NCBI RefSeq assembly: GCF_964194155.1
Contig: NC_135893.1
Coordinates: 22,630,001 to 22,694,000 of the forward strand
DNA length: 64,000 bases
Source: Cetorhinus maximus
Taxonomy: Eukaryota
Reading direction: 5' to 3'
The notes beneath the pieces are model-generated. The model searched no databases and had not been told where the DNA came from. It was given only the letters and a program-made list of their open reading frames with translations. The position numbers and the translations under genes are program-made. Below, one piece after another: positions 1,236 through 62,787 of the stretch (the first letter of the stretch is position 1; every line of letters begins with the position of its first letter).

Positions 1236-1692
1236 GTGCTGGAGTCAGGCCGTCTCCCAGAGTGGGCCACAGAGGCCACCAGGAGGGTATCTACACCCTC
1301 AGAGCATAGGAGTCACTGACAAATAAGAGTGCCACACAATCCAACTAAAAAAAAACTTGCAAAGTGCTCACCACTCAGAAATCAAGCAAGTCTGAATATA
1401 CATGGCTTCAGGAAAAACCAGTAAAACTTGGAAATGAAAGGTGCCAGTAAAACTTGCCCGAACTGGTCTTGTCTACCTTAAAATGGAACCCCAGTGTTAC
1501 TGATTTTTTTTCTTACAGTCATCAGCCTACTCTGAACTGTTTCTCACTTATTTGCAATTTGGCCTTTTCCATTTCAAGCTGCAATATATACGACGGCACT
1601 CCCCTCCCCAGCGGTGTCAAGGACAACCTTGGCCCCTGGCTGCAGCCACCCTAATTTTAATTCATCTATCCAGAACAACCTTACATTTTCAT

Positions 1693-3684
1693 AACAAAAA
1701 CAGAATTACCTGGAAAAACTCAGCAGGTCTGGCAGCATCGGTGGAGAAGAAAAGAGTTGACGTTTCGAGTCCACATGACCCTTCAACAGAACTGAGTGTA
1801 GTTAGGAGAGGGGTGAAATATAAGCTGGTTTAAGGTGGGGGCGGGGGGGTGGGGGGGGAGAGAAGTTGAGGGTGGGGTGGTTGTAGGGACAAGCAAGCAG
1901 TGATAGGAGCAGATAATCAAAAGATGTCACAGACAAAAGGATCAAAGAGGTGTTGAAGGTGGTGATATTATCTAAGAAAAGTGCTAATTAAGAATGGATG
2001 GCAGGACACTCAAGGCACAGCTCTAGTGGGGGTGGGGCGGAAAGACTGACAAGGTATTAGTTGTAGATTTGAAAATAATGGAAATAGGTGGGAAAATAAA
2101 AATCTATATAAATTATTGAAAAAAACAAAAGGGAGGGGGAAGAAACAGGGTGGGATGGGGGGAGGGAGTTTAAGATCTAAAGTTATTGAATTCAATATTC
2201 AGCCCGGAAGGCTGTAAAGTGCCTAGTCGGAAGATGAGGTGCTGTTCCTCCAGTTTGGGTTGGGCTTCACTGGAACAATGCAGCAAGCCAAGGACAGACA
2301 TGTGGGCAAGAGAGCAGGGTGGAGTGTTAAAATGGCAAGCGACAGGGAGGTTTGGGTCTTTCTTGCGGACAGACTGCAGGTGTTCTGCAAAGCGGTCGCC
2401 CAGTTTGCGTTTGGTCTCTCCAATGTAGAGGAGACCGCATTGGGAGCAACGAATGCAGTAGACTAAGTTAGGGGAAATGCAAGTGAAATGCTGCTTCACT
2501 TGAAATGAGTGTTTGGGCCCTTGGACAGTGAGGAGAGAGGAAGTGAAGGGGCAGGTGTTGCATCTTCTGCGTGGGCATGGGGAGGTGCCATAGGTGGGGG
2601 TTGAGGAGTAGGGGGTGATGGAGGAGTGGACCAGGGTGTCCCGGAGGGAACGATCCCTACGGAATGCCACCAGGTGGGTGAAGGGAAGATGTGTTTGGTG
2701 GTGGCATCATGCTGGAGTTGGCGGAAATGGCGGAGGATGATCCTTTTAAATGCGGAGGCTGGTGGGGTGATAAGTGAGGACAAGGGGGACCCTATCATGT
2801 TTCTGGGAGGGAGGAGAAGGCGTGAGGGTGGATGCGCGGGATATGGGCCGGACACGGTTGAGGGCCCTGTCAACGACCGTGGGTGGAAAACCTCGGTTAA
2901 AGAAGAAGGAGGACATGTCACAGGAACTGTTTTTGAAGATAGCGTCATCAGAACAGACGCGACGGAGGCAAAGGAACTGAGAGAATGGGATGGAGTCCTT
3001 ACAGGAAGCGGGGTGTGAGGAGCTGTAGTCGAGGTAGCTGTGGGAGTCGGTAGGCTTGTAATGGATATTGGTGGACAGTCTATCACCAGAAATTGGGACA
3101 GAGAGGTCAAGGAAGGGAAGAGAAGGGTCAGAGATGGACCATGTGAAAATGATGGAGGGGTGGAGATTGGAAGCAAAATTAATAAATTTTTCCAGGTCCC
3201 GACAAGAGCATGAAGCAGCACCGAAGTAATCATTGATGTACCGGAGAAAGAGTTGTGGGAGGGGGCTGGAGTAGGACTGGAACAAGGAATGTTCCACATA
3301 CCCCATAAAGAGACAGGCATAGCTGGGGCCCATGCGGGTACCCATAGCCACACCTTTTATTTGGAGGAAGTGAGAGGAGTTAAAGGAGAAATTGTTCAGT
3401 GTGAGAACAAGTTCAGCCAGACGGAGGAGAGTAGTGGTGGATGGGGATTGTTGGGGCCTCTGTTCAAGGAAGAAGCTAAGGGCCCTCAGACCATTCTGGT
3501 GGGGGATGGAGGTGTAGAGGGATTGGACATCCATGGTGAAGAGGAAGCGGTTGGGGCCAGGGAACTGGAAATTGTTGATCTGACGTAAGGTGTCAGAGGA
3601 ATCACGGATGTAGGTGGGAAGGGACTGGACAAGGGGAGAGAGAAGGGAGTCAAGATAACGAGAAATGAGTTCCGTGGGGAAGGA
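1693..3684 (-). mobile_element. 5'-truncated Penelope-like retroelement (Neptune-type): RT + GIY-YIG endonuclease + terminal repeat
   Basis: ORF 2746-3534 has PLE RT motifs (DVQSLYTSIP, GVAMGTRMGPSYACLFM, RYIND for YxDD, LPFLD, YKPT). ORF 2170-2670 has CPRRRCNTC and VYCIRCSQCGLLYIGET...RFAEH...GLN (GIY-YIG). Frameshift near 2746. ACATTTTCAT is duplicated at 1683-1692 and 3685-3694. Confidence 0.92.
1755..1793 (-). ncRNA. Minimal type-I hammerhead-ribozyme-like motif in the Penelope terminal repeat
   Basis: Minus strand AGUU-CUGUUGA-A-GGGUC(AUGUG)GACUC-GAAAC-GUC-AACU: 4-bp stem I, stem II hairpin, GAAA core, palindromic ACGU stem III. Core has U at conserved A6. Confidence 0.6.
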
Positions 3685-3844
3685 ACATTTTCATCTTACA
3701 TTATCTTTACATTTTCATCTTTGTTCTGTCTCATTGTCTCTTAACTTATTCCAGTGTTTCTGCCTGCAACTAATGGTTCCTATAGTCCGTTCCAAGTGTT
3801 GAGCTCACTCTGCATGAAGAACTATCTTCTGATATCAGTCCTAA

Positions 3845-4160
3845 AAAAGAAACTTGCATTTCTAGTTACAGCCAATTTAGTACTTTTGAAGGTGTAGTCA
3901 CTGTTGCAATATAGGAAACATGTATGCGGCAGCCAATTTGTGCAGCAAGCTCCCTCAACCACCAATGTGTAATACCAGATAATCTTTTTAATGACATATG
4001 AGGGATAACTATTGGCCAGGGCATGAGTATCTCCCCTGCACTTCGTCGAAATAGTGTTATGGGTTCTTTTATGCCCACCTAGAGGGCAGATGGTGCCTTT
4101 GTTTAACGTCTCATCCGTAAGAACAAGCCTACATTTTTCCCATTGCTGCATCTAATTGTC
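3845..4160 (-). mobile_element. DeuSINE (SacSINE1/AmnSINE1-like) fragment
   Basis: Minus strand GGATGAGACGTTAAAC...ATCTGCCCTCTAGGTGGGCATAAAAGAACCCATAACACTATTTCGA...CCTGGCCAATAGTTATCCCTCA resembles the Deu domain. Confidence 0.65.
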
Positions 4161-5075
4161 TCTTAAATTATTTCAGGGTTTCTGCCTCCAATACTCGGAG
4201 GACTGTTCCAAGTGTGGATCTCAATCTGCATGAAGATAATAAAATAGTTCTAATAGAAGTCCTAACGTACGTTACCTTTTGTTTAGTTTGAACCTGTGTC
4301 TCCTTATCCTCTTCTTATGGTTTAAAGTTATATTGTGTGTAAACCTTTCCCTGCCATTTACTATCTTATATACACAGTGATTATGAAGTCCTTGTGCAAC
4401 TTTAAACTGTAATAACTTTTGTTGTACATGATAGGACACAAACTATAAACAGCTTTTGAAAGCGTAATTCATAAAATGTTTAATGTGAATTTTATTAATG
4501 ATGGTGAAACTGATTAAAACACTGAAACTGGGCAATTTTTATTTTCTCTTTGCAATACTTCTCTCTTATCTGCATTAATTTTTATCTACATTTTTGATCC
4601 CCACACACATTGTATTTAGCTCATTCTTTCTGAGCTGCCTGAATTCCTTTTAACCAATTTACACTGAGGTTCTGAACCCAAGTCATTTATGCAGCTTAGA
4701 AACACCCGTGGTCCCAACACAGAGTTCCAGGGCACCTCATCAGTAGTTACCTCCCACCCAACTCTGGACATTATTCTGCTAACCTTCTGCCCTCAGCCAA
4801 TTTCTTACCTGTCCTCAAGTTTTGCCCTGACTTTCCAGAGCTTGGTGATTAATTAGTAATCTTTCAAGTGGAGCCTTATCAATTGTGTTTTGAAAGTTGA
4901 AGTACACAATGTCGTAGGGTATGCCATGATTGAATAGTTACTTTCTCAGAACTGGAATTGGTTAGTCAGGATCTTCCTCATCTAAATCCACTTCAACTGT
5001 TGATAACTAGTTTGTTGTTGTACAAATAATACTCAAATTTACTCTTAATAACTAAATCATTTTGTTGGAATTGTA
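4150..5075 (-). mobile_element. Degenerate CR1 LINE fragment
   Basis: Decayed RT motifs on the minus strand (DFQxxxDK-like, GVPxxSVLGP-like); a related ~100-bp segment lies at about 3727-3822. Confidence 0.45.
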
Positions 5076-10335: not shown

Positions 10336-11419
10336 GTTGAAACTGATACATTGTACAAAAATTAATGGAGATATCTGTATATTAATTAAAAGTTTCATTG
10401 CCCCCTTTTGATCAGAATATTAATTTTGCAAATTTATAAGTTGTGATTTCTCAGAATGAATATGTAAATGGGTGTTAAAACTTGTTCTCTTAACTGGGAA
10501 TAAAGCTATAGATGCAAACTATCTTTGTCATTGGCTCTTCCTAGACAGATCTTTCCTCCTGCAGGGAGCATAGTTGTATGGCCATAGTAAAGGAGGAAAA
10601 TAGATGTTAAACAGATCTTCCATCCTCTTTAGGTTATGGATCTAGTTCCAGGATCTTTGTGTCCCTTTAGAGTAGAAATGCAGATAACTCTGCACAGGGG
10701 TGATTTGTCTTTCCCTGTGAGCAGATACCTGGCACCCCTGCTTTTGGTGGCTTGCTTCACCATCTCCTTTACTGGCCTATTGAAATCAGGACCTAGTAGG
10801 GGTGGATTGTTGTTGGACAACAGTAATCTGCTGTTTGGACAGCAATTTCTCATTGACCAGGTTCACAGGTTTCATAATTAAAATAGACATTGTGGATTTA
10901 GTGTTGCATCAGTTGGAAACCTGGCCCTTTAGTAGCTGGTTGGTATTATTCCTTCAGCTGATCTGTATTTCATAGATGTGTGTTTTATTTAAGCGCACTT
11001 TCCTATGTCAGAGAGTACAATACTTTAAGGTGATGCTAGCTTGGCACCAATAGGAAATGAGTATTTTATTGCTTGTGTTGGCCTCAGGCTCAAAATAAAC
11101 TTATCTACACTTAAATCTACCTACCTTCGCTTATCGATTTCAATTAGAGTATCTTCGGGAATGCTTCCAGTTTCCTTTTTGCTTTTCATTTTCCCATATA
11201 GTTGCTGTGATTTCAACTTTATCCCTTATTGCCACTGATACTTGTCTGTATTCTATATGCCACCATGACCGTATCACAAACTCTCATTAAACAGTTTGTG
11301 CAATTACTGCCCATTAAAAACTCATGGTTCATAATTTGTTTTTAAGACTTCAAAGCCACTTAGCCTAAAGAATTCCTAATATCATGAATGATCCTTGCAT
11401 TTTTCACCCACGCCCAACA

Positions 11420-12680
11420 ACATCTTCCCAAATTCTATATGTTCTGGAATGGTTCCTGTAGATTGGAAGGTAGCAAATATAACCCCACTATTTAAGAAAG
11501 GAGGGAGAGAGAAAATGGGGAACTACAGACCTGTTAGCCTGACATTCGTAGTAGGGAAAATGCTGGAATGTATAACAAAGGATGTCATAACTGGACACTG
11601 AAAATAATGGTAGGATTGGGCAGCGTCAACATGGATTTATGAAAGGGAAATCATGATTGACCAGCCTGTTAAAGTATTTTGAGGATGTAACTAGCAGAAT
11701 AGATAAGTGGGAACCAGTGGATGTGAAATAAAAACAAAATTCTGGGAAAAACTCAGCAGGTCTGGCAGCATCTGTGGAGAGAGAAACGGAGTTCAAGTTT
11801 TGAGTCTGTTGACTCTTCAGAGCTAAAGAGAAGTAGGAATGGTAGATGTGGTCCATTTAGATTTTCAGAAAGCTTTCAATAATGTTCCACATAGGCTAGT
11901 AAACAAAATTAGAGCACATGAGATGGGGGTAATATACTGACATTGATTGAGAATTAGTTAACAGACAGAACAGAGGAGGAATAAACATGTCATTCTCAGG
12001 TTGGCAGGCTGACAGAATAGTGGGGTACCGCAAGGATCAGTGCTTGGGCTCCATCTATTCTCAATACATATCAATGATTTGGATATGGGGACCAAATGTA
12101 ATATTTCCAAGTTTGCTGATGACAAAATTAGGTGGGAGTGTGAGCTCTGAGGAAGATGCAAAGAGGCTTCAAGGGGACTTAGAAAAGGCTAAGTGAATAG
12201 GCAAAAAAAACGCACCTGGATCATCATGTGCAGTTTTGGTCTCCCCACCCAAGGAAGGAAATACCTCTCATAAAAGAAGTGCAATAAAGGTTTACCAGAC
12301 TGATTCCTGGGATGGCAGCATTGTCCCCTGAGGAGAGATTGAGGAGACTGGGCCTGTATTCTCTACAGTTTGGAAGCATGAGAGGTGATCTCATTGAAGC
12401 ATACAAAATTCTTACAGGGCTCGACAGGGTAGATATGGATAGGATGTTTCCCCTGGCTGGAGGTGGGGAATCGAACCAGGGGACACAGTCTCAGAATAAT
12501 TTGGGACCAGATGAGGAGGACTTTCTTTACTCAGAGGGTGGTGAATCTTTGAAATTCTGTACCCCACAGGGCAGTGGAGGCTCAGTTATTGAGCATGTTT
12601 AAGACTGAGATCTTGATTTCTAGTTACTAAAGACATCAAGAGATATGGGGATAGTGCGGGAAAACGACATTGAGGTAGAA
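11420..12680 (+). mobile_element. Older CR1 LINE (RT fragment) hosting two nested insertions; its 3' tail resumes at about 14016-14085
   Basis: VPVDWKVANITPLFKKG...NYRPVSLT, QHGFMKG, DFQKAF, FADD; frameshifted. Confidence 0.9.
11725..11840 (-). mobile_element. Penelope terminal-repeat-derived short element nested in CR1
   Basis: GAAAAACTCAGCAGGTCTGGCAGCATC shared with 1712-1739; flanked by GTGGATGTG / GTAGATGTG. Confidence 0.75.
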
Positions 12681-12682
12681 GA

Positions 12683-14013
12683 ATACTTGGTATTGGTAAA
12701 GTGCATGGTAAAATCGGGCAAAGTCAGCATGGTTTCATCAAGGGGAGGTCATGTCTGACAAATCTGTTAGAATTCTTTGAGGAGGTAATGAGTAGGTTAG
12801 ACAAAGGAGAGCCAATGGATGTTATCTACTTGGACTTCCAGAAGGCCTTTGACAAGGTGCCACACAGGAGGCTGCTCAGTAAGATAAGAGCCCATGGTGT
12901 TAGAGGCAAGGTACTAGCATGGATAGAAGATTGGCTGTCTGGCAGGAGGCAGAGAGTGGGGATAAGGGGGTCCTTCTCAGGATGGCGGCCGGTGACTAGT
13001 GGAGTTCCGCAGGGGTCAGTGTTGGGAGCACAACTTTTCACTTTATACATTAATGATCTAGATGAAGGAACTGAGGGCATCCTGGATAAGTTTGCAGATG
13101 ATACAAAGATAGGTGGAGGGACAGATAGTATTGAGGAGGTGGGGAGGCTGCAGAAGGATTTGGACAGGTTAGGAGAATGGGCAAGGAAGTGGCAGATGGA
13201 ATACAATGTGGGGAAGTGTGAGGTCATGCACTTTGGTAGGAAGAATAGTGGCATAGACTACTTTCTAAATGGGGAGAGAATTCAGAAATCTGGAGTGCAA
13301 AGGGACTTGGGAGTCCTAGTCCAGGATTCTCTTAAGGTTAACTTGCAGGTTGAGTCGGTAGTTAGGAAGGCAAATGCAATGTTGGCAATTATTTCGAGAG
13401 GACTAGAATATAAAAGCAGGGATGTGCTGCTGAGGCTTTATAAAGCTCTGGTCAGACCACATTTAGAATATTGTGAGCAATTTTGGGCCCTGTATCTCAG
13501 GAAGGATGTTCTGGCCCTGGAGAGGGTCCAGAGGAAGTTCACGACAACGATTCCAGGAATGAAAGGCTTAACATATGAGGAACGTTTGAGGATTCTGGGT
13601 CTATACTCGATGGAGTTTAGAAGGATGAGGGGGGGATCTGATTGAAACTTACAGAATACTGAGAGGCCTGGATAGAGTGGACGTGGGGAAGATGTTTCCA
13701 TTAGTAGGAGAGACTAGGACCCGAGGGCACAGCCTCAGAGTAAAGGGAAGAGCTTTTAGAACAGAGATGAGGAGAAACTTCTTTAGCCAGAAAGTGGTGA
13801 ATCTATGGAATTCATTGCCACAGAAGGCTGTGGAGGCCAGGTCATTGAGTGTATTTAAGACCGAGATAGATAGGTTCTTGATTGGTAAGGGGATCAAAGG
13901 TTACGGGGAGAAGGCGGGAGAATGGGGTTGAGAAACTTATCAGCCATGATTGAATGGCAGAGCAGACTCGATGGGCCGAATGGCCTAATTTCTGCTCCTA
14001 TGTCTTATGGTCT
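12683..14013 (+). mobile_element. Younger 5'-truncated CR1 LINE (RT + 3'UTR), shark HER1-type tail
   Basis: ORF 12701-13645: [37 protein letters not shown]. Frameshift at the G-run near 13630 continues into 13677-13931. Tail GGGCCGAATGGCCT...TATGTCTTATGGTCT. Confidence 0.95.
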
Positions 14014-16734: not shown

Positions 16735-18425
16735 AAGGTCAGAAAGCTAGGAATTCTGCAGCAAGTAACTCTCCTCCTGACTCCCCAAAGCCTGTTTAGT
16801 ATCTACAAGGCAGGAGTGTGGTGGAATACTCTCCGCTTGCCTGGATGAGTGCAGCTCCAACAACACTCAAGAAGCTTGACACCATCCAGGACGAAGCAGC
16901 CCACTTGATTGGCACCCCGTTCACAAACATTCACTCCCTCCACCACCGACGCACAGTGGCAGCAGTGTGTACCATCTACAAGATGCTGCAGGAACTCACC
17001 ATGCTCCTTGGACAGCACCTTCCAAACCCACGACCGCTACCATCTAGGACAGGCTTGTCCAACCTTTTTGCTTGGTGGGCCACATTTGCATATTTTTCTC
17101 AATCAAGGGGCCGATGAGAAAATTTCAGAAAGACAAGGTTTGCCACAACAATAAACTGAATTTCAAAAAAAAGTTGTTTTAAGGAAAGAAGCAATTGCTG
17201 AGCAAAAGTACAGCAATGTCATAGCAATAAATTGTTAATTTAAAAAAGAGTAATCAATGAAAATGACCAGTGTGTGAGAGGGTCAGTGTGTGTCAGGCTC
17301 ACTCCCAGTCCCAAGGTGCTCACTCACTCACCCTCACCTGTTGTTAGTAGGTGCGTGTGTATGTGTTGATGTGTGGTGGTGAGAGTGAGTGAGAAACCTG
17401 GGCGCAAGTGTACAAGTGAAACTGGGCACAACACAGACTCACTTAACCCCCTCCAAACGCTCAGTTTCTCGCACTCACCCCCACACTCTGCCACTCGCAC
17501 TCCTCTCCCGCCCCCAACACGGTCACTCAGTCTTTCGCACTCCCCCCAACACACACACACAGTCATTCACTCATAATCCCCCACACACTCAGATACGCTC
17601 CCTCACTCCCCCCACACACTCTCATACACTCACTCTCCCTCCTCCCCACCCCACACACACTCAGACATGTGCTGTCATTCCCCCAAGCACTCAGACACGC
17701 TCTCTCACTCCCCCCATACTTACACTCTCAGGCATGCTCTCTCACCTCCCCCCACACACACATTCGGGCACACTCTCTCACTCCCACACTCACCATGGCA
17801 TCGTCTCCTTCCTGTGCCGCCAAAACTTTGCCTTTCGTGGGCCCGGTATACCTGGCTCTCTAGGCTTCAGCTCCACCGTTGCTTGGCTCCAGAGGCACCA
17901 GCCCAACTATACCTTTGTTTCCCTCGACCTGGCAGCCCTCAGCATACTCACCATGCCAGTGTTCGCTGCTGTTCCAATCAAAAACTGTTTTTCTCCCTCA
18001 TTTGCTCACTAATGAGCCTATCAGCAGCAAACGTGGGGAGAAATGGCCTGTGATTGGAGGAGCAGCTCCATACAGAACCTTCCATTGAAACTGACCTGTT
18101 TGACTGGAATTTTGAAAACTGACTCAAGGGGCTTTGTGGGCCATATACTTTGGACAATCCTGATCCAGAACAAGGGCATCAAACACATGGAAACACCACC
18201 AGCTGGAAGTTCCCCTCCAAGCCACTCACCATCCTGACTTGGAAATGTATTGCCATTCCTTCACTGTCGCTGGGTCAAAATCCTGAAACTCCCTCCCTAT
18301 CAACACTGTGGATATACCTCATGGGGGTTCAAGAAGGCAACTCACCACTGCCTTCTCAAGGGCAATTAGGGATGGGCAATAAATGCTGGCATAGCCAGCG
18401 ATGCCCACATCCCATGAATGAAATT
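16735..18425 (+). mobile_element. 3' fragment of the CR1/L2-group LINE family seen at 21399-24633, split by a hAT element
   Basis: EYSPLAWMSAAPTTLKKLDTIQD...SLHHRRTVAAVCTIYKM; resumes at 18163 and ends in GGGCAATTAGGGATGGGCAATAAATGCTGG...CCCATGAATGAA. Confidence 0.85.
17050..18162. mobile_element. Non-autonomous hAT (Charlie-like) DNA transposon with a CA-rich interior
   Basis: TIRs CAGGCTTGTCCAA / TTGGACAATCCTG; 8-bp TSD ATCTAGGA / ATCCAGAA (host site ATCTAGAA, the NTCTAGAN preference of Charlie elements). Confidence 0.85.
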
Positions 18426-19128
18426 TTAAAAGCACAGTTCTTAAATTCATCCCTTTCCCAGTTCAAGGGCACTGAGGTAAATTGTCATGCCCCACATGCT
18501 CCCCTGTCTCCGATCAGCTAACTCAGTACAAACTACAGATTGAATGAGGGTTTCTGATTTAATCTTTCTTTTCAGTTCAGCCTTTGTTAATTGATTTAAT
18601 CAAGAGAACTGCAAGAAAGTTCAGTCCTGTTCCATTTTCATTGTACATTTCTTGCCGTATTGAATTTGCTGCCTGCTGGAGTTGTATCTATTTTTACATA
18701 TACGTGTTTTCACCACTGGGTTAATTTCACAACTACATGCTTGTTGTTGAGCTTGAGGAGTGAAAGCGATGAGCATGCTTTGTGCAACATGTTCTGTTGT
18801 GTAGATACTGGGTACTTGAGGGAGACATCTTAAGTGTACATATGGGTACTCTGGTGCATATTGGGCACTCCTTTATGTATATTGCATGTACTATTGGGCA
18901 TATACTGGGTGCTCTAAGCATGCACATGGCCAAACTGCTTTCCATTGGAGTCCTTGTTCAATTAAAACACGTGTGTTGGAGCTGAACGTGCTCAAATACT
19001 ACTGCATGGAATGCATGACAGCCAGTAATTCATCTGTAATAACCGATAGCTAAATGTATATGTATAATAGGAAGGGAAAAGACAACCAGTTTTGTGACAA
19101 ACATCTATATTTTTCCACATTGTGTTAG

Positions 19129-21136: not shown

Positions 21137-21284
21137 ATTCTCAAAAACTGGGAACTATGAGCTGGCAGTGGCACTATCCCGCTGGGTATTCAAAGAGGAA
21201 GGAGTTCTCCGTGTTGGAAAGGTGTCTCACCACCCTGTTGGAGAAATCAAACCGCCAAATGCCTATACCATAACTGACCTGGTG
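21137..21284 (+). CDS. ddost: DDOST exon 8
   Basis: [49 protein letters not shown]; donor GTG|GTAAGT. Confidence 0.95.
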
Positions 21285-21398
21285 GTAAGTACAAATGAAA
21301 CTCATACTAATTGTTAGAACTTTTCGTGGATATTTTAGGAGATATTTTGAATTAAATAATTATGCGGTGGGGACTTGTGGCAGCTGAAGAGGCTTAAA

Positions 21399-24300
21399 GG
21401 GGAGCAAAGGCATAGTGGTATTGTCACTGGACAAGTAATCCAGAGACCCAGGGTAATGCTCTGGGGACCCGGGTTCGAATCCCACCACGACATATGGTGG
21501 AATTTGAATTAAATAAAAACCTGGAATTAAAAGTCTAACGTCGATTGTTGTAAAAACTCATCTGGTTCACTAATGTCCTTTAGGGAAGGAAATCTGTCGT
21601 CCTTACCTGGCCTGGCCTACACGTGACTCATGGTTGACTCTTAAATGCCCTCTGAAATGGCCTAGCAAGCCACTCTGTTGTAACAAACCGCTACAAAGTC
21701 ACAGAAAAGGATGAAACCGGATGGATCACCCTGTATCGACCTAGGCACCGGGAACAACAACGGCAATCTCAGCCATGTCGACTCTGCAAAGTCCTCCTTA
21801 CTAACATCTGGGGGTTAGTGCCAAAATTGGGAGAGCTGTCTCATAGACTAGTCAAGCAACAGCCTGACATAGTCACTCTCACAGAATCACACCTTACAGA
21901 TAATGTCCTAGACTCCTCCACCACCACCACCACCATCTCTGGGTATGTCCTGTCCCATCGGCAGGACAGGCCCAGCAGAGGTGGTGGTATACAGTCGGGA
22001 GGGAGTTGCCCTGAGAGTCCTCAACATCGACTCTGGACCCCATGAAGTCTCATGGCATGAAATCAAATATGGGCAAGGAAACCTGCCGATTACCACGTAC
22101 TGCCCTCCCTCAGCTAATGAATCAGTGCTCCTCAATTTTGAACACCACGGAGGAAACACTGAGGGTGGCAAGGCTGCAGAATGTTCTCTGGGTGGGGGAC
22201 TACAATGTTCATCACCGAGTGGCTTGGTAGAACCACTACTGACAAGCTGGCTGTGTCCTAAATGACATCGCTACTAGACTGGGTCTGCGGTAGATGGTGA
22301 GGGAATCAACAAGAGAGAAAAACATATTGATCTCATCCTCACCAACCTGCCTGTCACAGATGCATCTGTCCATGACAGTATCGGTAAGAGTGGCCATCGC
22401 ACAGTCGTTGTGGAGACGAACTCCCACCTTCACATTGAGGATACTCTCCATCGTGTTGTGTGGCACAACCACTGTGCTAAATGGGATAGATTTCGAACAG
22501 ATCTAGCAACTCGAGACTGGGCATTCATGAGGCACTGTGGGCCATCAGCAGCAGCAGAATTGTACTCGAACACAATCTGTAACCTTGTGGTCCGGCATAT
22601 TCCCCACTCCACCATTACCATTAAGCCAGGGGATCAACCCTGGTTCAATGAAGAGTGCAGGAGGGCATACTAGGAGCAGCACCAGGCGTACCTAAAAATG
22701 AGGTGTCAACCTGGTGAAGCTATAATACAGGACTACTTGTGTGCCAAACAGCATAAGCAGCAAGTGATAGAGCTCAGCGATCCCACAATCAACGGACCAG
22801 ATCTAAGCTCGGCAGTACAGCACATCCAGCCGTGAATGGTGGTGGACAATTAAACAATTCACTGGAGGAGGAGGAGGAGGCTCCACAAATATCCCCATCT
22901 TCAATGATGGAGGAACTGAGCACATCAGTGCAAAAGTTAAGGCTGAAGCATTTGCTACGATCTTCAGCCAGAGGTGCCTAGTGGATGATCTATCTCAGCT
23001 TCCTCCAGAGGCCCCCAGCATCACAGATGCCAGTCTTCAACCAGTTAGATTCACTTCGTGATATCAAGAAACGGCTGAAAGCACTGATACTGCAAAGGCT
23101 ATGGTCCCTGACAATATTCCAGCAAGAGTACTGAAGACTTGTGCTCCAGAACTTGCCACACCCGTAGCCAAGCTGTTCCAGTACAGCTACAAGACTGACA
23201 TCGAACTGGCTATTTGGAAAATTGCTCAGGTATGTCATGTAAACAAAATGCAGGGCAAATCCAATCCGGCCAATTACCGCCCTATCAATCCATTCTCGAT
23301 CAGCAGTAAAGTATTGGAATGGGTCATCAACAGTGCTATCAAGCAACATTTGCTTAGCAATAACATGCTCACCAACGCCCAGTTTGGGTTCCGCCAGGGC
23401 CACTCAGCTCCTGATCTCATTACAACCTTGGTTCAAACATGGACAAAAGATCTGAACTCCTGAGGTGAGGTGAGAGTGACTGCCCTTGACATTAAGGCTG
23501 CATTTGACTAAGTGTGGAATCAAGGAGCCCTAGCAAAACTGGAGTCAATGGGAATCGGGGAAAACTCTCCACTGGTTGGAGTGATACCTAGCACAAAGGA
23601 AGATGGTTGTGGTTGTTGGTCAGTCGTCTCAGCTCCAGGACATCACTGCAGGAGTCCCTCAGGATAGTGTCCTTTGCCCAACCATCTTCAGCTGCTTCAT
23701 CAATGACCTTCCTTCCATCATAAGGTCAGAAATGGGGATGTTCACTGATGATTGCACAATGTTCAGCACCATTCGCGACTCCTCAGATACTGAAGCAGTC
23801 CATGTCCAAATGCAGCAAGACCTGAACAATATCCAGGCTTGGGCTGACAAGTGGCAAGTAACATTCGTGCCACACAAGTGTCAGGCAATGACCATCTCCA
23901 ACAAGAGATAATCCAGTCATCACTCCTTGATGTTCAATGGCATTACCATCACTGAATCTCCCACTATCACCATCCTGAGGGTTACTATTGACCAGAAACT
24001 GAACTGGACTAGCCCTATAAATACTGTGGCTACAAGAGCAGGTCAGAGGCTAGGGATTTTGTGACTAGTAACTCACCTCCTGACTCCTGAAAGCCTGTCC
24101 TCCATCTACAAGGTGCAACTCAGGAGTGTGATGGAATATTCTTGACTTGCCTGGATGAGTGCAGCTCCCACAACACTCAAGAAGCTTGACACCATCCAGG
24201 ACAAAGCAGCCCACTTGATTGGCACCCCATCCACAAACCTTCACTTCCTCCATCTCTGACACACAGTAGCAGCAGTGTATACCATCTACAAGATGGACTG

Positions 24301-24633
24301 CAGGAATTCACCAAGGCTCCTTCGACAGCACCTTCCAATCCCACGACCACTACCATCTAGAAGGACAGTACAAGGGGCAGCAGATTAATGGGAACACCAC
24401 CACCTGGAAGTTCCCATCCAAGTCACACCATCCTGACTTGGAAATATATCGCTGTTCCTTCACTGTTGCTGAGTCAAAATCCTGGAACTCCCTTCTTAAC
24501 AACACTGTGGGCGTACCTACACAACATCGACTGCAGCAGTTCAAGAAGGCAGCTCACCACCACCTTCTCAAGGGCAACTAGGGGTGGGTGACAAATGCTG
24601 GCCCAGCCAGCGAAGCCCATAATCCCATGAATG
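21399..24633 (+). mobile_element. Apparently full-length, decayed CR1/L2-group LINE with a tRNA-derived 5' head, APE endonuclease and RT, no ORF1
   Basis: A box GGCATAGTGG 21409-21418, B box GGTTCGAATCC 21472-21482. EN motifs NIWGL..KLGEL...PDIVTLTESHL, GDYNVH. RT motifs PDNIPARVLK, NYRPI, QFGFRQG, GVPQDSVLCP, MFTDD. Multiple stops and frameshifts. Confidence 0.88.
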
Positions 24634-25774
24634 AATTATTTTTTAAAAAGTGGGAATTCTGCTATCAAATGGGAATTGGGAAGAGTTAGGGGACGTGATG
24701 GTTGCAAGTGCAATTGAAGAATTAAGCTTTCTGAAAGCAATTGAAAGTAGGGAGAGATGTAGCAAGGCAGAGAAGTTTAGAGGGAAAATTTTTGAGAGCA
24801 GGGTATTCTGGCTGAATGCCTTGCCGCCTCTGATGGGGAGTTTGCACACTAGAGGAGGCTCAAATAAGCAGAGAAGGTGACATGTTGACTAAAGGATGTG
24901 CAGAGATAGAGTAGAGTAAGGCTATGAAATGATTGTGTACACAAATTTTCAAGTCAGCCTGCGCTTGCTTCTCTCATTGTGGACATAAGGACCCTCACTT
25001 GAAGATTTACTTTTTGTTGTAAGGAAACCTGACAATTCAGTACTGTTGTAAATTTAAATGCAAGTGGAGTGATTAAAAACTGGGCACAGGTCTTTCAATC
25101 TCTGTTTATCTGCCCCCCCTTTCACAACTTAAAGGGTCACTTAAAGGGTCAGTAGATAATTGGGAATTGGGGGGGGGGGGGGGGCGGCGCGGTTGGGTTG
25201 GGTTGGGAGGGTGGGGGGTGGTTGGGGATATTATGACTATATTTGCTTTTTGCTCGTTTTGCCTGTCTCTCTCGTTCCCTTTGTACATCGAAGAGAGTCA
25301 TTTTCATGCTAATAGACTTGGATCTTATTCATCTTCTTTGACAATGAAGCTGCTCTATAACCTTTAGTGGCTACAGAGCAACATCATTGCCTCTTGAGAG
25401 TTTGGATAAACTCCATTAGTTGAAAATTAAATTGCGTATATAGTTAGACTCTGTAAGCTAGGTCATTTAGCTTTTTTCAAAATTTCAAATGAGATTTGAA
25501 TTCCTGGTCAAATAGTGGAGTGAGATGGGGCCCTTTACACTCCACTAAGAAGCAAAACTATATGATGGAACGTAATGGGGGATTATTCTCTCAATCCGCT
25601 GACTTTTTATTGACTTTCTGTTTATGTACTTTATTCTTTCATTATTCAAATGTAAGTACCCAAGTCTGATTCTTTAAGGTCTGATCACAATTCCCTCTAT
25701 AGCGGACTCTTCTGTGATGCTGTGAGGGTCTTTGGGTTGATTTGTGATATTTGTAATGTTCTGTCTTGGTGCAG

Positions 25775-29510: not shown

Positions 29511-29649
29511 AAAAAACAAAAAGCTACTGCGGATGCTGGAAATCCAAAACAAAAACAGAATTACCTGGAAAAACTCAGCAGGTCTGGCAGCATTGGTGGA
29601 GAAGAAAAGAGTTGACGTTTCGAGTCCAACATGACCCTTCAACAGAAAT
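29511..29649 (-). mobile_element. Penelope terminal-repeat solo copy with a hammerhead-like motif
   Basis: Near-identical to 1694-1791, including the CUGUUGA core variant and GAAACGUC. Confidence 0.85.
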
Positions 29650-33659: not shown

Positions 33660-33765
33660 GAATAAAAACAGAAAATGCTGGAAAAACTCAAGGTCTGACA
33701 GCATCTGTAGAGAGAGAAACAGAGTTAATGTTTCGTGTCTGTATGACCCTTCTTCAGAGCGGGAC
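33660..33765 (-). mobile_element. Penelope terminal-repeat solo copy with hammerhead-like core and 11-bp TSD
   Basis: Minus strand CUGAAGA-AGGGUCAUACAGACAC-GAAACAUUAACU; AAGTGTGACAG at 33649-33659 and 33766-33776. Confidence 0.8.
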
Positions 33766-34411: not shown

Positions 34412-34530
34412 AGCAAAATCCTGCAGATGCTGGAAATCTGAAATAAAAACAAAAAATGCTGGAAATACTCAGCCCGTCAGGCAGCATCTGTGGAGAGAAA
34501 CAGAGTTAACATTTCAGATCGATGACCTTT
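34412..34530 (-). mobile_element. Penelope terminal-repeat-derived short element
   Basis: CTGCAGATGCTGGAAATCTGAAATAAAAACA...GGCAGCATCTGTGGAGAGAAACAGAGTTAAC. Confidence 0.7.
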
Positions 34531-34814
34531 TAGTTGTTACTTTCAGAAAATGTTTGATGTTTACGCTTTACCTTGAAATTAAATGAATGGAGTAGTGAAT
34601 AAATTCAGCTTGCATTAGTAAACAAACAAGTCTTTGTATATACTGTAGTTACTTACATAATTAATCTCAAGGAGAGGTCCAAAACATTGATGTTGTTTTC
34701 AGATCTTTATACCGAAAAAGCAGTTATCATTTAGGGTTCTTGTGAATTTAAGAGGGGGCTGGGTCCAAATAGCAAGTGGTGGAATGCTTTGTGAATATTA
34801 CTGAGATTCATGCC

Positions 34815-42025: not shown

Positions 42026-42379
42026 TTATTCACGACTTGATGTGTGCCATTTAGAAGCTACTCTTTGTTCTAATACGGATTCGAAATGTTAACTCTGTTT
42101 CTCTCTCCACATATGCTGCCAGACCTGTTGAGTTTTCCTAGCATTGTCTACTCTTGGTTCTGGTTTTTAGAGCTGGAGTGCCTCCCATTAGTTTCAGAGC
42201 AGTGTTATCAAGAGCTTCAGAAAGGAAGGGACTCTAATGTCAGTAGTTACAAAAAGGGAGCCACAGGAGAAATCAAATAGTTGTGCACAAAAACAGGGAA
42301 AAGGCAAGGGATGTTCAGTAGTCATTTGTTGTTGGCATTCAATTTAGCTGGCTTTAGTCGATATTTTGTCTTTTTACAG

Positions 42380-42594: not shown

Positions 42595-44300
42595 CATACG
42601 CCATGTCCCAGACACCTCCATCTGGCAGGTCAGCCCCAGCAGAGGTGGCAGCACAGTGGTATACAGTCAGGAGGGAGTTGCCCTGGCAATAACCTGCTCA
42701 CTGACGCCCAGTTTGGGTTCTGCCAGGGCCACTCAGCTCCTGACCTCATTACAGCCTTGGTTCAAACATGGACAAAAGAGCTGAACTCCCAAGGTGAGGT
42801 GAGTTGACTGCCTTTGACATCAAGGCCTCATTTGACCGAGTGTGACATCAAGGGAGCCCTAGCAGAACTGGAGTCAATGGGAATCGGGGGGGTGAAAACT
42901 CTCCACTGGTTGGAGTCATACCTAGCAGAAAAGAAGATGGTTGTGGTTGTTGGTCAATCATCTCAGTTCCAGGACATTAGGAATGCAGGAATTCCTCGGG
43001 GTAGTATCCTAGGCCTAACCATCTTTCAGCTGCTTCATCAATGACCTTCCTTCCATCGTAAAGTCGGAAATGGGGATGTTCGCTGATGATTGCACAAAGC
43101 TCAGCACCATTCGCGACTCCTCAGACACTGAAGCAGTCCCATGTCCAAATGCAGCAAGACCTGGACAATATCCCGGCTTGGGCTGACAAGTGGCAAGTAG
43201 CATTCGCTTCACACAAGTGCCAGGCAATGACCATCTCCAACAAGAGAGAATCTAACCATCGAACACATTCAATGGCATTACCATCGCTGAATCCCCCACT
43301 ATGATCATTCACCAAGGCTCCTTAGACTGCACCTTCCAAAACCACGACCACTACTATCTAGAAAAACAAGGGAAGCAGATAGGTAGAAATACCACCACCT
43401 GGAAGTTTGCCCCTAAGCCACTTACCATCCTGACTTGGCAATATATCACTGTTCCTTCACTGTTGCTGGGTCAAAATCCTGGAACTCCCTAACAGCACTG
43501 CGGGTGTGCCTACACCACATGGACTGCAGCAGTTCAAGAGGGCAGCTCACAACCGCCTTCTCAAGAGCAACTAGGCATGGGCAATAAATGTTGGCCCAGC
43601 CGGTGAAGCTCACATCCTGTGAATTAATAAAAAAAAATTTTTAAATCCTGGGGGTTACCATTGACCAGAAACTGAACTGGACTAGCCATATAAATACTGT
43701 GGCGACAAGAGCAGGTCAGAGGCTAGGAATCCTGCGGCGAGTAACTCACCTCCTGACTCCCCAAAGCCTGTCCATCATCAACCAGGCACAAATCAGGAGT
43801 GTGATGGAATACCCTCCATTTGTCTGGATGAGTGCAGCTCCAACAACACTCAAGAAGCTTGACACCATCAAGGACAAAGCAGCCTGCTGGATTGGCACCC
43901 CATCCACAAACATTCACTCCCTCCACCATTGACAAACAGTGGCAGCAGTGTGTACCATCTACAAGGTGCACTGCAGAAACACACCAAGGCTCCTTCGGCA
44001 GCACCTTCCAAACCCACGACTGCTACCATCTAGAAGGACAAGTACAGCAGATAAATGGGAACCCACTACCTGGAAGTTCCCCTCCAAGCCACTCACCATC
44101 CTGACTTGCAAATATATTGCTATTCTTTCACAGTTGCTGGGTCAAAATCCTGCAACTCCCTCCCTAACAGCACTGTGGATATACCAACACCACAGGGACT
44201 GCAGAGGTTCAAGAAGGCAGCTCACCACCACCTTCTCGAGGGCAATTAGGGATGGGCAATAAATGCTGGCCTAGCCAGCCATGCCCACATCTTATAAATT
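42595..44300 (+). mobile_element. Internally deleted CR1/L2-group LINE copy with a nested 3' fragment of the same family (about 43285-43640)
   Basis: Colinear with 21900-22010 and then 23358-24630; two 3' tails (about 43570-43635 and 44240-44300). Confidence 0.85.
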
Positions 44301-44311
44301 AATTTAGAAAA

Positions 44312-47351: not shown

Positions 47352-47739
47352 TTTTTTATTCTTTCATGGGATGTGGGCGACACTGGCAAGGCCAGCACTT
47401 GTTGCCCATCCCTAATTGCCCCTGAACTGAGTGGCCTGCAGTGCCACTTGGAGTGCAGTTAAGAGTTACTGTGGGTTTGGAGTCACATGTAGACCAAACC
47501 AGATAAGGATGGCAGATTTCCTTCCCTAAAGGACATAAGTGAACCAGATGGGTTTTTACGACAATCGACAATGGTTTCACGGTCGCCATTACCGAAACTA
47601 ACTTTTAATTCCAGATTTATTAATTGAATTTAAATTCCACCAGCTGCCGTGGTGATATTTGAATCCTTTGTTCCTAGAACATTAGCCTGGGCCTCTGGTT
47701 ACTAGTCCGTAACATTACCACCACGCCACCATCTCCCCC
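47352..47739 (-). mobile_element. Full-length tRNA-derived SINE inserted in a CR1 fragment (about 47050-47830)
   Basis: Head GGTGGCGTGGTGG...GGATTCAAAT, body TTTAGGGAAGGAAATCTGCC, tail GGGGCAATTAGGGATGGGC...CCCATGAAAGAATAAAAAA. Confidence 0.85.
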
Positions 47740-48240
47740 TATTTATTCCATCAAAGCCCTTCATAATTTTGAACACCCTTATTAAATCTTCCCCTTACTT
47801 CATCTGCTCTAAGGAGAGCAACCCCTGCTCACCAGTTCCTGTATAAAGTTAGCAGAGATGCATTAAGTTAACGCACTGTGAAAACTTCTGATTTAATGCC
47901 TGGTTTGTGACTCTGTTGCTAGTCAAGAAATTACATAACTTGCTTGCCACATTTTAGGACACTTTACATTGTTTGCAGCATTACAAAGGAGTGATTGCTG
48001 TGTAACACCCTGCTAACAAGTTGTTTACATCCTCCAATAAGGTGCATCCTGCAATAAGTAATACATAATTTAATGATACATACTTAAACTCACTTTTAAG
48101 TTTCAATGCAGCTTACACTCGCCACATAACTGTTAGTCTTCAGGGAATGATGGCCTAGAGTAAGTTAGAGCAGTGTTGCTCACTAACTACAAGTATCTGA
48201 TTGAACTAAGCACCATGCATTTGAATTTTCCTATTACAAT

Positions 48241-56519: not shown

Positions 56520-59175
56520 TCATAAGATCATAAGAAATAGCAGGAGTATGCCATTTGATCCATTGAGCCTGCTTCACTATTCAATATGATCATGGTTGAT
56601 CTGATTGTGGCCTTAATTCCACTTTCCTGTCTGCCACCCCATAACCCTTGACTCCTTTGTCAATCAAAATCCTGTCTAGCTCAGCCTTGAATACACTCAG
56701 TGACTCAGCCTGCATTGCTGTCTGTGGAAGAGAATTCCAAAGACTAACAACCCCCTGAAAGAAGAAATTACTCAAATCTGTCTTAAATGAGACACCTCTT
56801 ATTTTTAAAGCCTGCCCCCTAGTTCTATGTTCCCCCCACGAGGGGAAACATCCTCTCAACATCTACCTTGTAAAGCTCCCTCAGAATCTTATATGTTTCA
56901 TTGAGTATAGGCCCAACCTTTCCTCACCTTCGCTTCATCCCAGGAATCAGCCTAGTGAACCTTTTCTGAACTGCTTCCAATGCAAGTACATCACTCCTTA
57001 AGTAAGGAGGCCAAAATTGTACACAGTACTCTAGGTGTAGTCTCACCAATGCCCTGTACAGAGTTTTTATACTTAAATCCCTTATAATAAAGGCCAACAT
57101 TCCATTTGCCTTCCCAATTATTTGCTGTACCTGCATGCTAACTTCTTGTGATTCATGTACAAAGACACCCAGAATCTTCTGTACTACAGCATTCTACAGT
57201 CTGTCTCCATTTAAATAATATTCTGCTTTTCTAATCTTCCTGCCAAAGTTGACAACCTCACAATTTCCCATATTATACTCCATCTGCCAAATTTTTGCCC
57301 ACTCACTTAGCCTATCTATATCCCTTTGCAGACTCTGTATCCTTCTCGCAACTTTCTTTCCTACCTATCTTTCTTACCTATCATCAGCAAATTTGGCTAC
57401 AATACAGTCGGTACCTTTAGCCAAGTCATTAACATAGATTGTAAATAGTTGAGCACTGATCCCTGCAGCACTCCACTAGTTGTAGATTGCCAACCTAAAA
57501 ATGACCCTTTATCCTGACTCTCTGTTTCCTGTTAGTTAGCCAATCCTCTATCCATGCTAATATATCACCTCCAGCATGAGCTCTTATGCAGTAACCTTTT
57601 ATGTGGCACCTTAACAAATGCTATTTGGAAATCTTAATACACTACATCTACTGGTTCCCCTTTATCACCCTGCTTGTTACATCCTCAAAGAATTCTAATA
57701 AATTTATCAAACACAATTTCCATTTCACAAAACCATGTGACTCTGCCTGATTGTATTATGATTTTCTAAATGTCCTGTTACTACCTCCTTAATGGATTCT
57801 AACATTTTACCAATGATAGATATTAGACTAATTAGCCTATAGTTTCCTATTTTCTGTCTCCCCCTCTTGAATGGTGAAGTTACATTTTCAGTTTTCCAAT
57901 CTGCTGGGACCTTTCCAGTGAATTTTGGAAGATTACAACTAATGCATCCAATATTGCTGCAGCTACTTTCTTTAAGACTCTAGGATACAGGCTGTCAGGT
58001 CCAGGGATCTAGCCAGCCTTTAGTCCCAATAGTTTTTCTGCTAGCTTTTCTCTAGTGATTGTAAGTTCCTCCCTTTTGACCCTGCTTTTCTACCATTCTT
58101 ACGATGTTTTTGTGTCTTTTATTCTGAAGACAGATACAAAATACTTGTTTAATGTGTCTGCCATTTCCTTGTTTTCCATTATTAATTCCCCAGTTTCACC
58201 CTCCTAAGGGTCTAAAGCTCAGTTTTGCTACTCTTTTCCTTTTTATATACTTGCAGAAGCTTTTATTATCTGTTTTTATATTTCTTGCAAGCGTTTTCTC
58301 ATACTCTAATTTCTCCTTTATTTTTAAGTCATCCTTTGCTAGTTTCTAAAATGTTTTCAACCTTCTACCACATCTTTGTAGCATTGTACATCTCTTCTTT
58401 CAATTAGATACCACCCTTAACTTCTTTAGTTGGCCACGGAAGTTGCAGCTTTCTTGTAGAGTCTTTCTTTCTCAATGGAATATATCTTTGTTGAACTATC
58501 TGCTTAAATGTCTCCTACTGCTCTACCTTTTAACCCATTTTCCTTTTCCACTTTAGTGAACTCTGTCTTCATATTCTTGTAATTGTCTTTATTTAAGTTT
58601 AAGATATTAGTTTCAGACTCCGGTTTCTCACCTTCAAACTGAATGTGAAATTGTATCACGTTATGAGCATTCTTACCTAGAGGATCCTTTACTGTGAGGT
58701 CATTTATTAATTCTGTCTCACTACACATTATGAGGTCTAAAATGGCCTGTTCCCTGGTTGGTTCCAGAATGTATTGTAAGAAACTGTCCCAATACACTCT
58801 ATGAATTCATCCTCCAGGCTCCATTTGTCAATTTGATTTGTCCAATCTATGAAGATTAAAATCTCCCACAATTATTGCAGTAGCTTTCCTATAAGCACCC
58901 AATATTTCTTGATTTACACTCCATCCTATAATGTAGCTACTATAGATGGGGATGGGTGGGGGGAGGGTGGGGTCTATAAACCACTCCCACCAGTGACTTT
59001 CCTTTGCTATTTCTTATCTCCACCCAAACTGATTCTATATCTTGATGCTCCGAACCAAGATCATTTCTCGCGATTGTACTGACCTCATCCTTTATTAACA
59101 GAGCTACCCCACCTCCTTTTGCTTTCTTCCTGTCCTTCGAAATGTCAAATACTGGAGTACTCAGGTCCCAGGTGT
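56520..59175 (-). mobile_element. Long degenerate CR1 LINE (endonuclease end, RT, 3'UTR)
   Basis: Minus ORFs DSFLQYILEPTREQAILDLIMC...DPLGKNAHNVI (EN), KANGMLAFI...LVRLHLEYCVQFW, WNSLPQ; tail at 56520-56560. Confidence 0.9.
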
Positions 59176-59384
59176 GGTCATTTTGCCCTGTATTTTAAAC
59201 TGTCTCAATAAAACATCTAAAATCTGTGTCCTTTTCAGAATCTTTTGACTGAGTCTGATGAATGTTATATGAATATTTAAACTCTATGGAGCCCCTACTG
59301 CTAACATGCAGATAGGCAAATCAGACTGCTGTCCAGAAGTACTTGAGCATTTTTTAGTTTGGTCAGCTTCCTTCCCTCGAAGCA

Positions 59385-61851: not shown

Positions 61852-62432
61852 TTGAATGTTGGAGAGGCAAAGATGTTTAGATAAAGAATTTGAGAGAGTA
61901 TGGCAAAGGTGGCTAGAGATAATGTAATTAATGGTGGGACAAAGATAGGAGGATGCACAAAAGACCAGAAATGGGTAACAGAGGTGATCAATGGGGAGAT
62001 GGTGACAATGGTGACGTTTCACACAAAATTAATCATATAGGATGAAAAACAAGAGATACAGAGTGGGTGCTAGCAGATCAATCACCTGTTAAACACCCAG
62101 TCCAATTTTCCTTCACATTGTCTTCAATGGAAAGGACTATTGTATGGGTGTATAATCAGTGGCTGTTTCGCTACAACTCATTTTGCATCCCTGTTGTAGT
62201 TGAATTTTGTATCTGATTTGCAGTTTAGAAATTTGTGGACCATTTGATCCAAAAAAAGGACAAGTTGCAGTAGTGTTATCAGCCTCTCCCCATTGATCAC
62301 CTCTGTTCTGCATTTCTGGTCTTTTGTGCATCCTCCTATCTTTGTCCCACCATTAATTACATTATCTCTAGCCATCTTTGCCATACTCTCTCAAATTCTT
62401 TATCTAAACGCCTTTGCCTCTCCAACATTCAA
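61852..62432. repeat. 148-bp inverted repeat (arms 61852-61999 and 62285-62432)
   Basis: Arms are reverse complements with about 6 mismatches by eye; mirrored ORFs appear in the track. Confidence 0.9.
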
Positions 62433-62433
62433 T

Positions 62434-62787
62434 ATCACTGAACTAGTAATCCAGAGGCCCAGCCTAATGCTCTGGGGGTTCAAAACGCACCCTGGCAACT
62501 GGTGCAATTTAAATTTAATTATTAAATCTGGAATATAAAGCTAGCCTCAGTAATAGTGACCATGACAACTATCATCAATTGTTGTAAAAACCCAACTGGC
62601 TTTTGGCTCACTAATGTCCTTTAGAGAAGGAAATCTGCCGTCCTTACCTGGCCTGGCTTTCAGGTGACTCCAGAGCCAGAATGTTGTGGTTGACTCTCAA
62701 CTGCCCTTAGTTCAAGGGAAATCGCGGATGGGCAACAAATGCTGGCCTTGCTTGTGACATCCACATCCCATGAAAGAATAAAAAAAG
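62434..62787 (+). mobile_element. 5'-clipped tRNA-derived SINE (same family as 47352-47739)
   Basis: CTAGTAATCCAGAGGCCCAG head, TTTAGAGAAGGAAATCTGCCG body, CCACATCCCATGAAAGAATAAAAAAA tail. Confidence 0.85.

What the first reader, a model, noticed from the sequence alone, without database searches (positions are those of the whole stretch)
21399..24633. A LINE with a tRNA-derived Pol III head and no ORF1, whose two ends together make up a local SINE family
Seen: the first ~280 nt (A/B boxes, body TTTAGGGAAGGAAATCTG, to GCCACTCTGTT at 21679) and the last ~65 nt (CAAGGGCAA... from 24569) of this 3.2-kb EN+RT element match the head/body and tail of the SINEs at 47352-47739 and 62434-62787. In the 47352 copy the two parts are joined directly (GCCACTCAGTT-CAGGGGCAATTAGGG). 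The endonuclease starts about 100 nt after the shared head, with no in-frame ATG in this copy. Established: SINEs usually share only the 3' tail with a partner LINE. Inference: either the SINE is an internal-deletion derivative of a tRNA-headed autonomous LINE, or the LINE captured a SINE as promoter, implying an unusual transcription and translation mode.
Basis: partly seen in the sequence, partly recalled or inferred. Interest (0 to 1): 0.75.

Follow-up and report, generated by a model that had tools for sequence, protein, structure and literature searches.

The report
Shark LINE with tRNA promoter head
A protein-coding jumping gene common to sharks and rays starts with the tRNA-type promoter normally found only on short non-coding SINEs and avoids the T-runs that stop RNA polymerase III, so it may be a coding retrotransposon made by that polymerase.

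Summary
The 3.24-kb element is a dead copy (23 breaks) of the elasmobranch Zenon LINE (CR1 group). Its first 280 nt and last 65 nt match two SINEs in the window (71-85%). The body-linker-endonuclease junction recurs in 9 of 32 listed contigs from other loci and in four whale-shark gene models. All 7 published elasmobranch Zenon consensuses (5 species; supplement of PMC13343379) begin with the same tRNA-like head; hagfish and coelacanth Zenon do not. That paper never mentions tRNA or a promoter. Lack of ORF1 is ordinary for Zenon. New here: the sense strand avoids T-runs (odds ratio 0.35; CR1 controls 0.9-1.15), and both TTTT runs are private to this copy. A conserved AUG opens a 35-codon ORF out of frame with the endonuclease. 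Best reading: a Pol III-promoted autonomous LINE with non-canonical translation and a SINE made of its two ends. Pol III use (about 55%), translation mode and direction of descent are inferred, not shown.

The parts
21399..21492 (+). tRNA-like head with A box (21409-21418) and B box (21472-21482); folds into anticodon-like, long variable and T arms
   Evidence: same head starts 7 of 7 elasmobranch Zenon consensuses
21493..21679 (+). Body shared with the SINEs; not a Deu, Meta or UCON3 domain; two deletions private to this copy near 21540 and 21630
21680..21787 (+). LINE-only linker; endonuclease frame open, no in-frame ATG
21711..21818 (+). Conserved 35-codon upstream ORF (MKPDG...), frame +1 relative to the endonuclease, overlapping its first 10 codons
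   Evidence: same AUG peptide in whale-shark models P0082, P0083, P0085, P0095 and in published consensuses
21788..24581 (+). Single AP-endonuclease + reverse transcriptase ORF, about 937 residues, dead (14 frameshifts and 9 stops against P0064)
24569..24638 (+). 3' tail shared with the SINEs (last codons, stop, stem-loop, A-rich end)
47352..47740 (-). SINE A: head + body joined directly to tail
62432..62787 (+). SINE B: 5'-truncated in the head, about 23 nt missing before the tail junction
42618..44304 (+). Rearranged partial copies of the same LINE family (82-88%), without head
16736..18427 (+). 3' fragment of the same LINE family, interrupted at 17047-18166

Best explanation
The element is a decayed full-length copy of the elasmobranch Zenon LINE. 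SHOWN: the family's unit is tRNA-like head + body + linker + one EN-RT ORF + tail, in sharks and a ray, and an abundant SINE is its first 280 and last 65 nt joined at one sharp point. INFERRED: the head was gained in the shark-ray stem; it works as an internal type-2 Pol III promoter that makes the whole 3.2-kb RNA, which is why the sense strand is cleared of T-runs; the uncapped RNA is translated without an in-frame AUG, most simply by ribosomes that enter the conserved 35-codon upstream ORF and reach the endonuclease frame by a -1 shift or re-initiation; the protein binds the 3' stem-loop and copies both its own RNA and the SINE RNA. The SINE most likely arose by internal deletion (about 55:45 over capture). 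Architecture about 0.97, Pol III use about 0.55, the specific translation route about 0.3.
For:: 9 of the 32 listed contig pieces cross 21679/21680 with 31 or more nt on both sides and run into the endonuclease, each with 24-47 differences (other loci; this locus's own contig has 1 in 176), in runs of organisms A, B and C; the SINE tail is a top loose end at exactly 21679 in 4 of 4 runs (404, 313, 344, 62 contigs). Whale-shark gene models P0079, P0081, P0078, P0082 (read by eye) join body-encoded peptides to the endonuclease start; 7 of 7 elasmobranch Zenon consensuses begin with the head, 0 of 3 hagfish/coelacanth ones, 77 denominators include 2313, 1419 and 612 copies. T-runs: sites where T would make TTT hold T 26:109 against 458:681 elsewhere (OR 0.35, CpG contexts removed); partial copies OR 0.54; three CR1 copies 0.87-1.15; A-run mirror 1.22; lowest TTT excess of 152 sliding windows; synonymous sites 9:35 against 213:240. 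Both TTTT runs are private. Zenon gives internal-deletion derivatives in moths (PMC6740152).
Against: No transcript was seen: contigs cannot give RNA ends or strand, and X15 is only guessed to be RNA. Pol III RNA is uncapped (PMC11485995), a real obstacle to translating 930 codons. Zero TTTT is not significant against a dinucleotide null (expected 2.8, P(0) 0.07); sites in the T-run tests are not independent; in the codon-level test the CR1 controls also leaned low (OR 0.54-0.66). The SINE copies themselves show no TTT avoidance (OR 0.76, 1.5; short). I could not test whether head-less invertebrate Zenon are equally T-poor. One whale-shark model (P0079) has the upstream ORF fused in frame. No canonical slippery heptamer is visible. 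Only the first 400 nt of the published consensuses were readable.
Confidence: 0.6

Rival explanations
1. Same architecture, but the RNA is made by Pol II (from the head/body acting as a Pol II promoter, or by read-through from host promoters); the A/B boxes matter only for the SINE and T-poverty is a compositional trait of the lineage.
For: LINEs are normally Pol II transcripts and need a cap; TTTT absence alone is weak; sense strand is A/C-rich.
Against: A and B boxes kept at the very 5' end in 7 of 7 consensuses across sharks and a ray; T-run avoidance is specific to T, to the sense strand and to this family.
Confidence: 0.35
2. Direction reversed: a tRNA SINE with a Zenon tail existed first, and a template switch or recombination put its head and body on a Zenon ORF (promoter capture).
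For: Outgroup Zenon lack the head; the window's SINEs carry the longer head form seen in Squalus LINE consensuses, not the form on this LINE copy, so the SINE lineage is old; module exchange among SINEs is common.
Against: The old head form equally fits an early deletion from an ancestral LINE; Zenon has produced deletion derivatives repeatedly; the body matches no published SINE domain tested.
Confidence: 0.45
3. Translation is ordinary: active masters had the 21711 AUG in frame with the endonuclease and the consensus frameshift is an artefact of decay.
For: P0079 reads upstream ORF into endonuclease in one frame; few intact ORFs exist in the published table (0/2313, 1/1419, 3/612).
Against: Window copy and HypSab consensus agree on the out-of-frame state; whale-shark models change frame at different points, as expected of random indels picked by a gene finder; one search lists no indel between 21711 and 21800.
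Confidence: 0.15
4. A one-off LINE insertion into a SINE at this locus.
For: No contig other than published consensuses links the tRNA head itself to the linker; contigs are short.
Confidence: 0.01

Closest known systems
Elasmobranch Zenon LINEs (CarCar_Zenon-1, ScyCan_Zenon-1, RhiTyp_Zenon-1, HypSab_Zenon-1, SquAca_Zenon-1/2/3; Stuart et al. 2026, PMC13343379)
   Same: Length 2.9-3.3 kb, no ORF1, A-rich tail; first 400 nt match head, body and linker by eye.
   Different: Nothing structural. The paper's main text has 0 hits for tRNA, promoter, polymerase III, start codon or nonautonomous: the head, the SINE and the T-run avoidance are not described.
Persaeus, short internally deleted element of lepidopteran Zenon (PMC6740152)
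   Same: 5' and 3' ends of a Zenon LINE joined, tail starting inside the ORF end.
   Different: Persaeus has no tRNA homology and no Pol III promoter.
Bipartite SINEs of RTE and Vingi (Bov-tA, AfroSINE, SINE2_Gav; PMC5786205)
   Same: SINE body matches LINE 5' UTR and tail matches LINE 3' end.
   Different: There the tRNA head is on the SINE only, and only RTE and Vingi were found to contribute; here a CR1-group LINE carries the head itself.
SacSINE1 (DeuSINE) and HE1 (V-SINE) of sharks
   Same: tRNA-headed shark SINEs with CR1/L2-group tails.
   Different: The published Deu domain is absent from this body; both share only tails with partner LINEs.
Human L1 ORF2 AUG-independent translation (PMC11485995)
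   Same: Reverse transcriptase ORF made without needing its own AUG, after an upstream ORF.
   Different: L1 RNA is a capped Pol II transcript with a full ORF1; here the upstream ORF is 35 codons and overlaps.

Membership tests
Zenon (CR1 group) | Single ORF with AP endonuclease and RT | tested here: met
   Pfam RVT_1 E 9e-11 and 4e-6, Exo_endo_phos E 0.066; aligns to P0064 residues 4-948
Zenon (CR1 group) | No ORF1 | tested here: met
   389 nt precede the endonuclease; longest AUG ORF 35 codons
Zenon (CR1 group) | Poly-A tail | tested here: inconclusive
   A-rich but decayed in this copy; A6-A9 in sister copies and SINEs
Zenon (CR1 group) | RT groups with Zenon in a tree | not tested
   No labelled reference set; nearest named hits are elasmobranch (58-72%) then amphioxus (47%)
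Elasmobranch Zenon | Nucleotide match to published consensus | tested here: met
   By eye over the first 400 nt only; not computed
SINE2 (for copies at 47352 and 62432) | tRNA-derived head with A and B boxes | tested here: met
   77/100 and 58/74 to the element head; boxes degenerate in these old copies
SINE2 (for copies at 47352 and 62432) | Tail shared with partner LINE; repeated as a unit | tested here: met
   tail loose end at 21679 in 4 of 4 runs
DeuSINE / SacSINE1 | Deu domain in body | tested here: not met
   Published motifs not found in element or either SINE
MetaSINE, UCON3-type SINE | Meta or UCON3 domain | tested here: not met
   Meta motif 0 hits; UCON3 alignment compared by eye
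Pol III transcription unit | No TTTT inside the unit | tested here: met
   Two runs in this copy, both private (22136: majority other letters in 4 of 4 runs; 24057: absent in 3 of 3 sister copies)
Pol III transcription unit | Pol III makes the RNA | not testable with these tools
   needs ChIP, 5' end chemistry, inhibitors
Ribozyme-headed LINEs (HDV-like) | Self-cleaving ribozyme at 5' end | tested here: not met
   No Rfam ribozyme match at E up to 10 in 21200-21900 or SINE A; decayed copies limit the test

The most novel reading that the evidence does not exclude
An autonomous, protein-coding retrotransposon family that has been transcribed by RNA polymerase III since before sharks and rays split, whose 2.8-kb coding region was purged of Pol III terminators, whose uncapped RNA is translated through an overlapping upstream ORF, and which spawned a SINE by simple deletion: a natural Pol III messenger and a direct LINE-to-SINE route.
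Probability: 0.5. Interest if true: 0.9.

Novelty: new variant of a known kind. Interest (0 to 1): 0.74.

Why it matters
The textbook split is that LINEs code and use Pol II while SINEs do not code and use Pol III. A multi-thousand-copy LINE family with a tRNA promoter and a T-run-free coding strand breaks that split. If Pol III use is confirmed it gives a natural case of a long protein made from a Pol III transcript, and a way to study cap-independent initiation. Even without that, it extends the 'SINE body comes from a LINE 5' end' model from RTE and Vingi to the CR1 group, with the head included, and it makes the question of SINE origin testable by trees of head and body across five sequenced species. 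It also warns that repeat annotation in sharks will split this LINE into a SINE plus a headless LINE.

Tried and rejected
No host genome was held, so copies could not be counted directly. My recalled guess that the body is the Deu domain (SacSINE1/AmnSINE1) was tested and failed. A 20-nt endonuclease-start pattern found 0 matches in metagenome, viral and prokaryote collections; P0006 as query found no loci, so 5' ends of invertebrate relatives were not seen. Depth falls about tenfold over the linker but swings as much inside the ORF, so I did not use it as copy number. Folding z-scores of head, body, linker and tail were not significant. No target-site duplication beyond 5 nt. No head upstream of three other LINE fragments (scores within shuffles). 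No ribozyme match. The first T-run null was biased by CpG decay and was replaced. No precedent for a tRNA-headed LINE in ten paper searches; a recalled Bov-B precedent was not confirmed. The library lacks most subscription journals, Repbase Reports and Dfam. Supplements of PMC5499810 and file 1 of PMC4824008 could not be read and may bear on the SINE's name.

Full report
Observation. The element runs from 21399 to about 24638 on the plus strand. Its first 280 nt and last 65 nt match SINE A (47352-47740, minus) and SINE B (62432-62787) at 71-85% by module, far beyond chance for the head/body (E 5e-40 and 8e-31). In SINE A the two matches abut at 47425. A-box-like and B-box motifs lie at 21409 and 21472. 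A frameshift-aware alignment to P0064, an intact 956-residue relative from an unnamed record, covers 21788-24578 as one endonuclease-RT ORF with 23 breaks; Pfam confirms RT. The copy is dead. No ATG lies in the endonuclease frame between 21656 and 22045.

Host and family. No genome was held. Named protein hits closest to the RT piece are from Mobula, Heptranchias, Heterodontus, Pristiophorus and Rhincodon, so the host is inferred to be an elasmobranch. Stuart et al. 2026 (PMC13343379; I saw passages, the outline, the data section and supplement rows cut at 400 characters) report Zenon elements in five elasmobranchs, over 84% alike, without ORF1, with poly-A tails, and absent from repeat repositories. 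'No ORF1' is therefore ordinary for this clade.

Is the junction a family trait? Three lines say yes. (1) I laid contigs of 4 of the 24 listed runs on 21250-22450. Of 32 listed pieces (281,191 not shown), 9 cross 21679/21680 with 31 or more letters each side and reach the endonuclease, with 24-47 differences each; 5 more cross with shorter left sides. Further joints link the body (21587-21703) to the endonuclease start across unaligned linkers. The SINE tail is a leading loose end at exactly 21679 in all 4 runs, so the SINE has one sharp breakpoint. Single contigs in organisms B and C cross this locus's 5' junction with 7-8 differences in 190 nt, so the insertion predates their split. No contig joined the tRNA head itself to the linker. 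(2) Of 4 whale-shark gene models, three (P0078, P0079, P0081) start with body-encoded peptides, as does P0082; tblastn confirms P0079 and P0081, the other two are read by eye. (3) All 7 elasmobranch Zenon consensuses in the supplement start with head, body and linker; the 2 hagfish and 1 coelacanth consensuses do not. This closes the gap left by short contigs. The paper's main text has no hit for tRNA, promoter or polymerase III, and one for SINE, in the references.

Which polymerase? Pol III stops at TTTT. The copy has two such runs on the sense strand against 14 on the antisense. At 22136 the majority of contigs in 4 of 4 runs read other letters; at 24057 3 of 3 sister copies lack the run. 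Against a dinucleotide null, zero runs has P 0.07, so this alone is weak. The TTT signal is stronger: with CpG contexts removed, pyrimidine sites where T would make TTT hold T in 26 of 135, against 458 of 1139 elsewhere (OR 0.35, nominal p 6e-7; sites not independent). Pooled sister fragments give 0.54; three CR1 copies in the window 0.91, 0.87, 1.15; the A-run mirror 1.22; and the two 3.2-kb windows over the element have the lowest TTT excess of 152. At synonymous sites the ratio is 9:35 against 213:240, and Phe is TTT in 4 of 22, though CR1 controls also lean low in that test (0.54-0.66). The SINEs show no such avoidance but are short and old. I read this as selection against Pol III terminators; a lineage-wide compositional bias remains open because no head-less Zenon DNA could be fetched.

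How is it translated? An AUG at 21711 opens 35 codons in frame +1, ending at 21818, ten codons into the endonuclease. The same AUG peptide appears in P0082, P0083, P0085 and P0095 and in the published consensuses; the HypSab consensus, visible up to the endonuclease start, is out of frame as here (read by eye). Gene models reach the endonuclease frame at different points, which suggests random indels; P0079 alone is fused cleanly. Invertebrate relatives start 3-6 residues before the first endonuclease motif. So the ORF needs a -1 shift, re-initiation or internal entry. L1 ORF2 is a precedent for AUG-independent initiation (PMC11485995, passages). I found no canonical slippery site and no ribozyme. 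This step is inference.

Direction. Outgroup Zenon lack the head (Persaeus lacks tRNA homology, PMC6740152, passages), so it was gained on the elasmobranch stem. The window's SINEs carry the longer head form of the Squalus consensuses, while this LINE copy has the shorter form of the Carcharodon and Scyliorhinus ones (by eye): the SINE lineage separated early. That fits early deletion or capture equally. Zenon's known habit of making deletion derivatives tips me slightly to deletion.

Comparison. Kojima 2018 (PMC5786205, passages) found LINE 5' parts in SINE bodies only for RTE and Vingi, with the tRNA head on the SINE alone. The body is not Deu, Meta or UCON3 (PMC7245038, passages and supplement file 1 in part), so the SINE is not SacSINE1 (PMC5499810, parts 1-2 of 6 and passages; supplement unavailable). 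Also seen as passages only: PMC4824008, PMC5753468, PMC3747384, PMC11481361, PMC8620236, PMC5009743. Ten searches found no description of a tRNA-headed LINE; Repbase, Dfam and most subscription papers were out of reach. Two earlier notes of this scan on other genomes reach a similar reading; they are not independent support.

Verdict. Real, family-wide, a member of elasmobranch Zenon by sequence match, with an architecture that sits in published consensuses but was not remarked on there. New variant of a known kind; interest 0.74; the Pol III messenger reading is about even odds and would merit 0.9.

Noticed in passing
window 3690-4260, minus strand (core near 4110-4030): A stretch resembling the published Deu domain, probably an old SacSINE1-like copy: a different SINE from the one in this finding.
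   Followed up: partly
window 24639-24649, about 43628-43645, about 18418-18428: 3 of 5 tails of this LINE family are followed at once by T4-T6 then A3-A5, while neither SINE tail is; may be target preference, tail decay or a built-in terminator.
   Followed up: no
window 12713-13820: A canonical CR1 RT fragment with only one break in 369 codons, much younger than its neighbours.
   Followed up: partly
window 56650-59200, minus strand; 11416-12200: Older CR1 copies, used as controls.
   Followed up: partly
window 61852-62008 and 62276-62432: 157-nt inverted repeat at 94% identity, ending exactly where truncated SINE B begins.
   Followed up: no
window 17047-18166: A 1.1-kb insertion splitting a LINE fragment, with ends that look like short inverted repeats; possibly a DNA transposon.
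   Followed up: no
window 1690-1791, 11721-11823, 29545-29647, 33660-33760, 34436-34533, 42073-42149, 59564-59658: A separate dispersed repeat of about 100 nt, one pair 97% identical.
   Followed up: no
window 42618-44304: Same-family LINE pieces in rearranged order with large internal deletions (21955-22013 joined to 23357).
   Followed up: partly
proteins P0026, P0037, P0053: More distant relatives carry an NPGP motif, recalled as 2A-like, before the endonuclease; the shark element has none.
   Followed up: no
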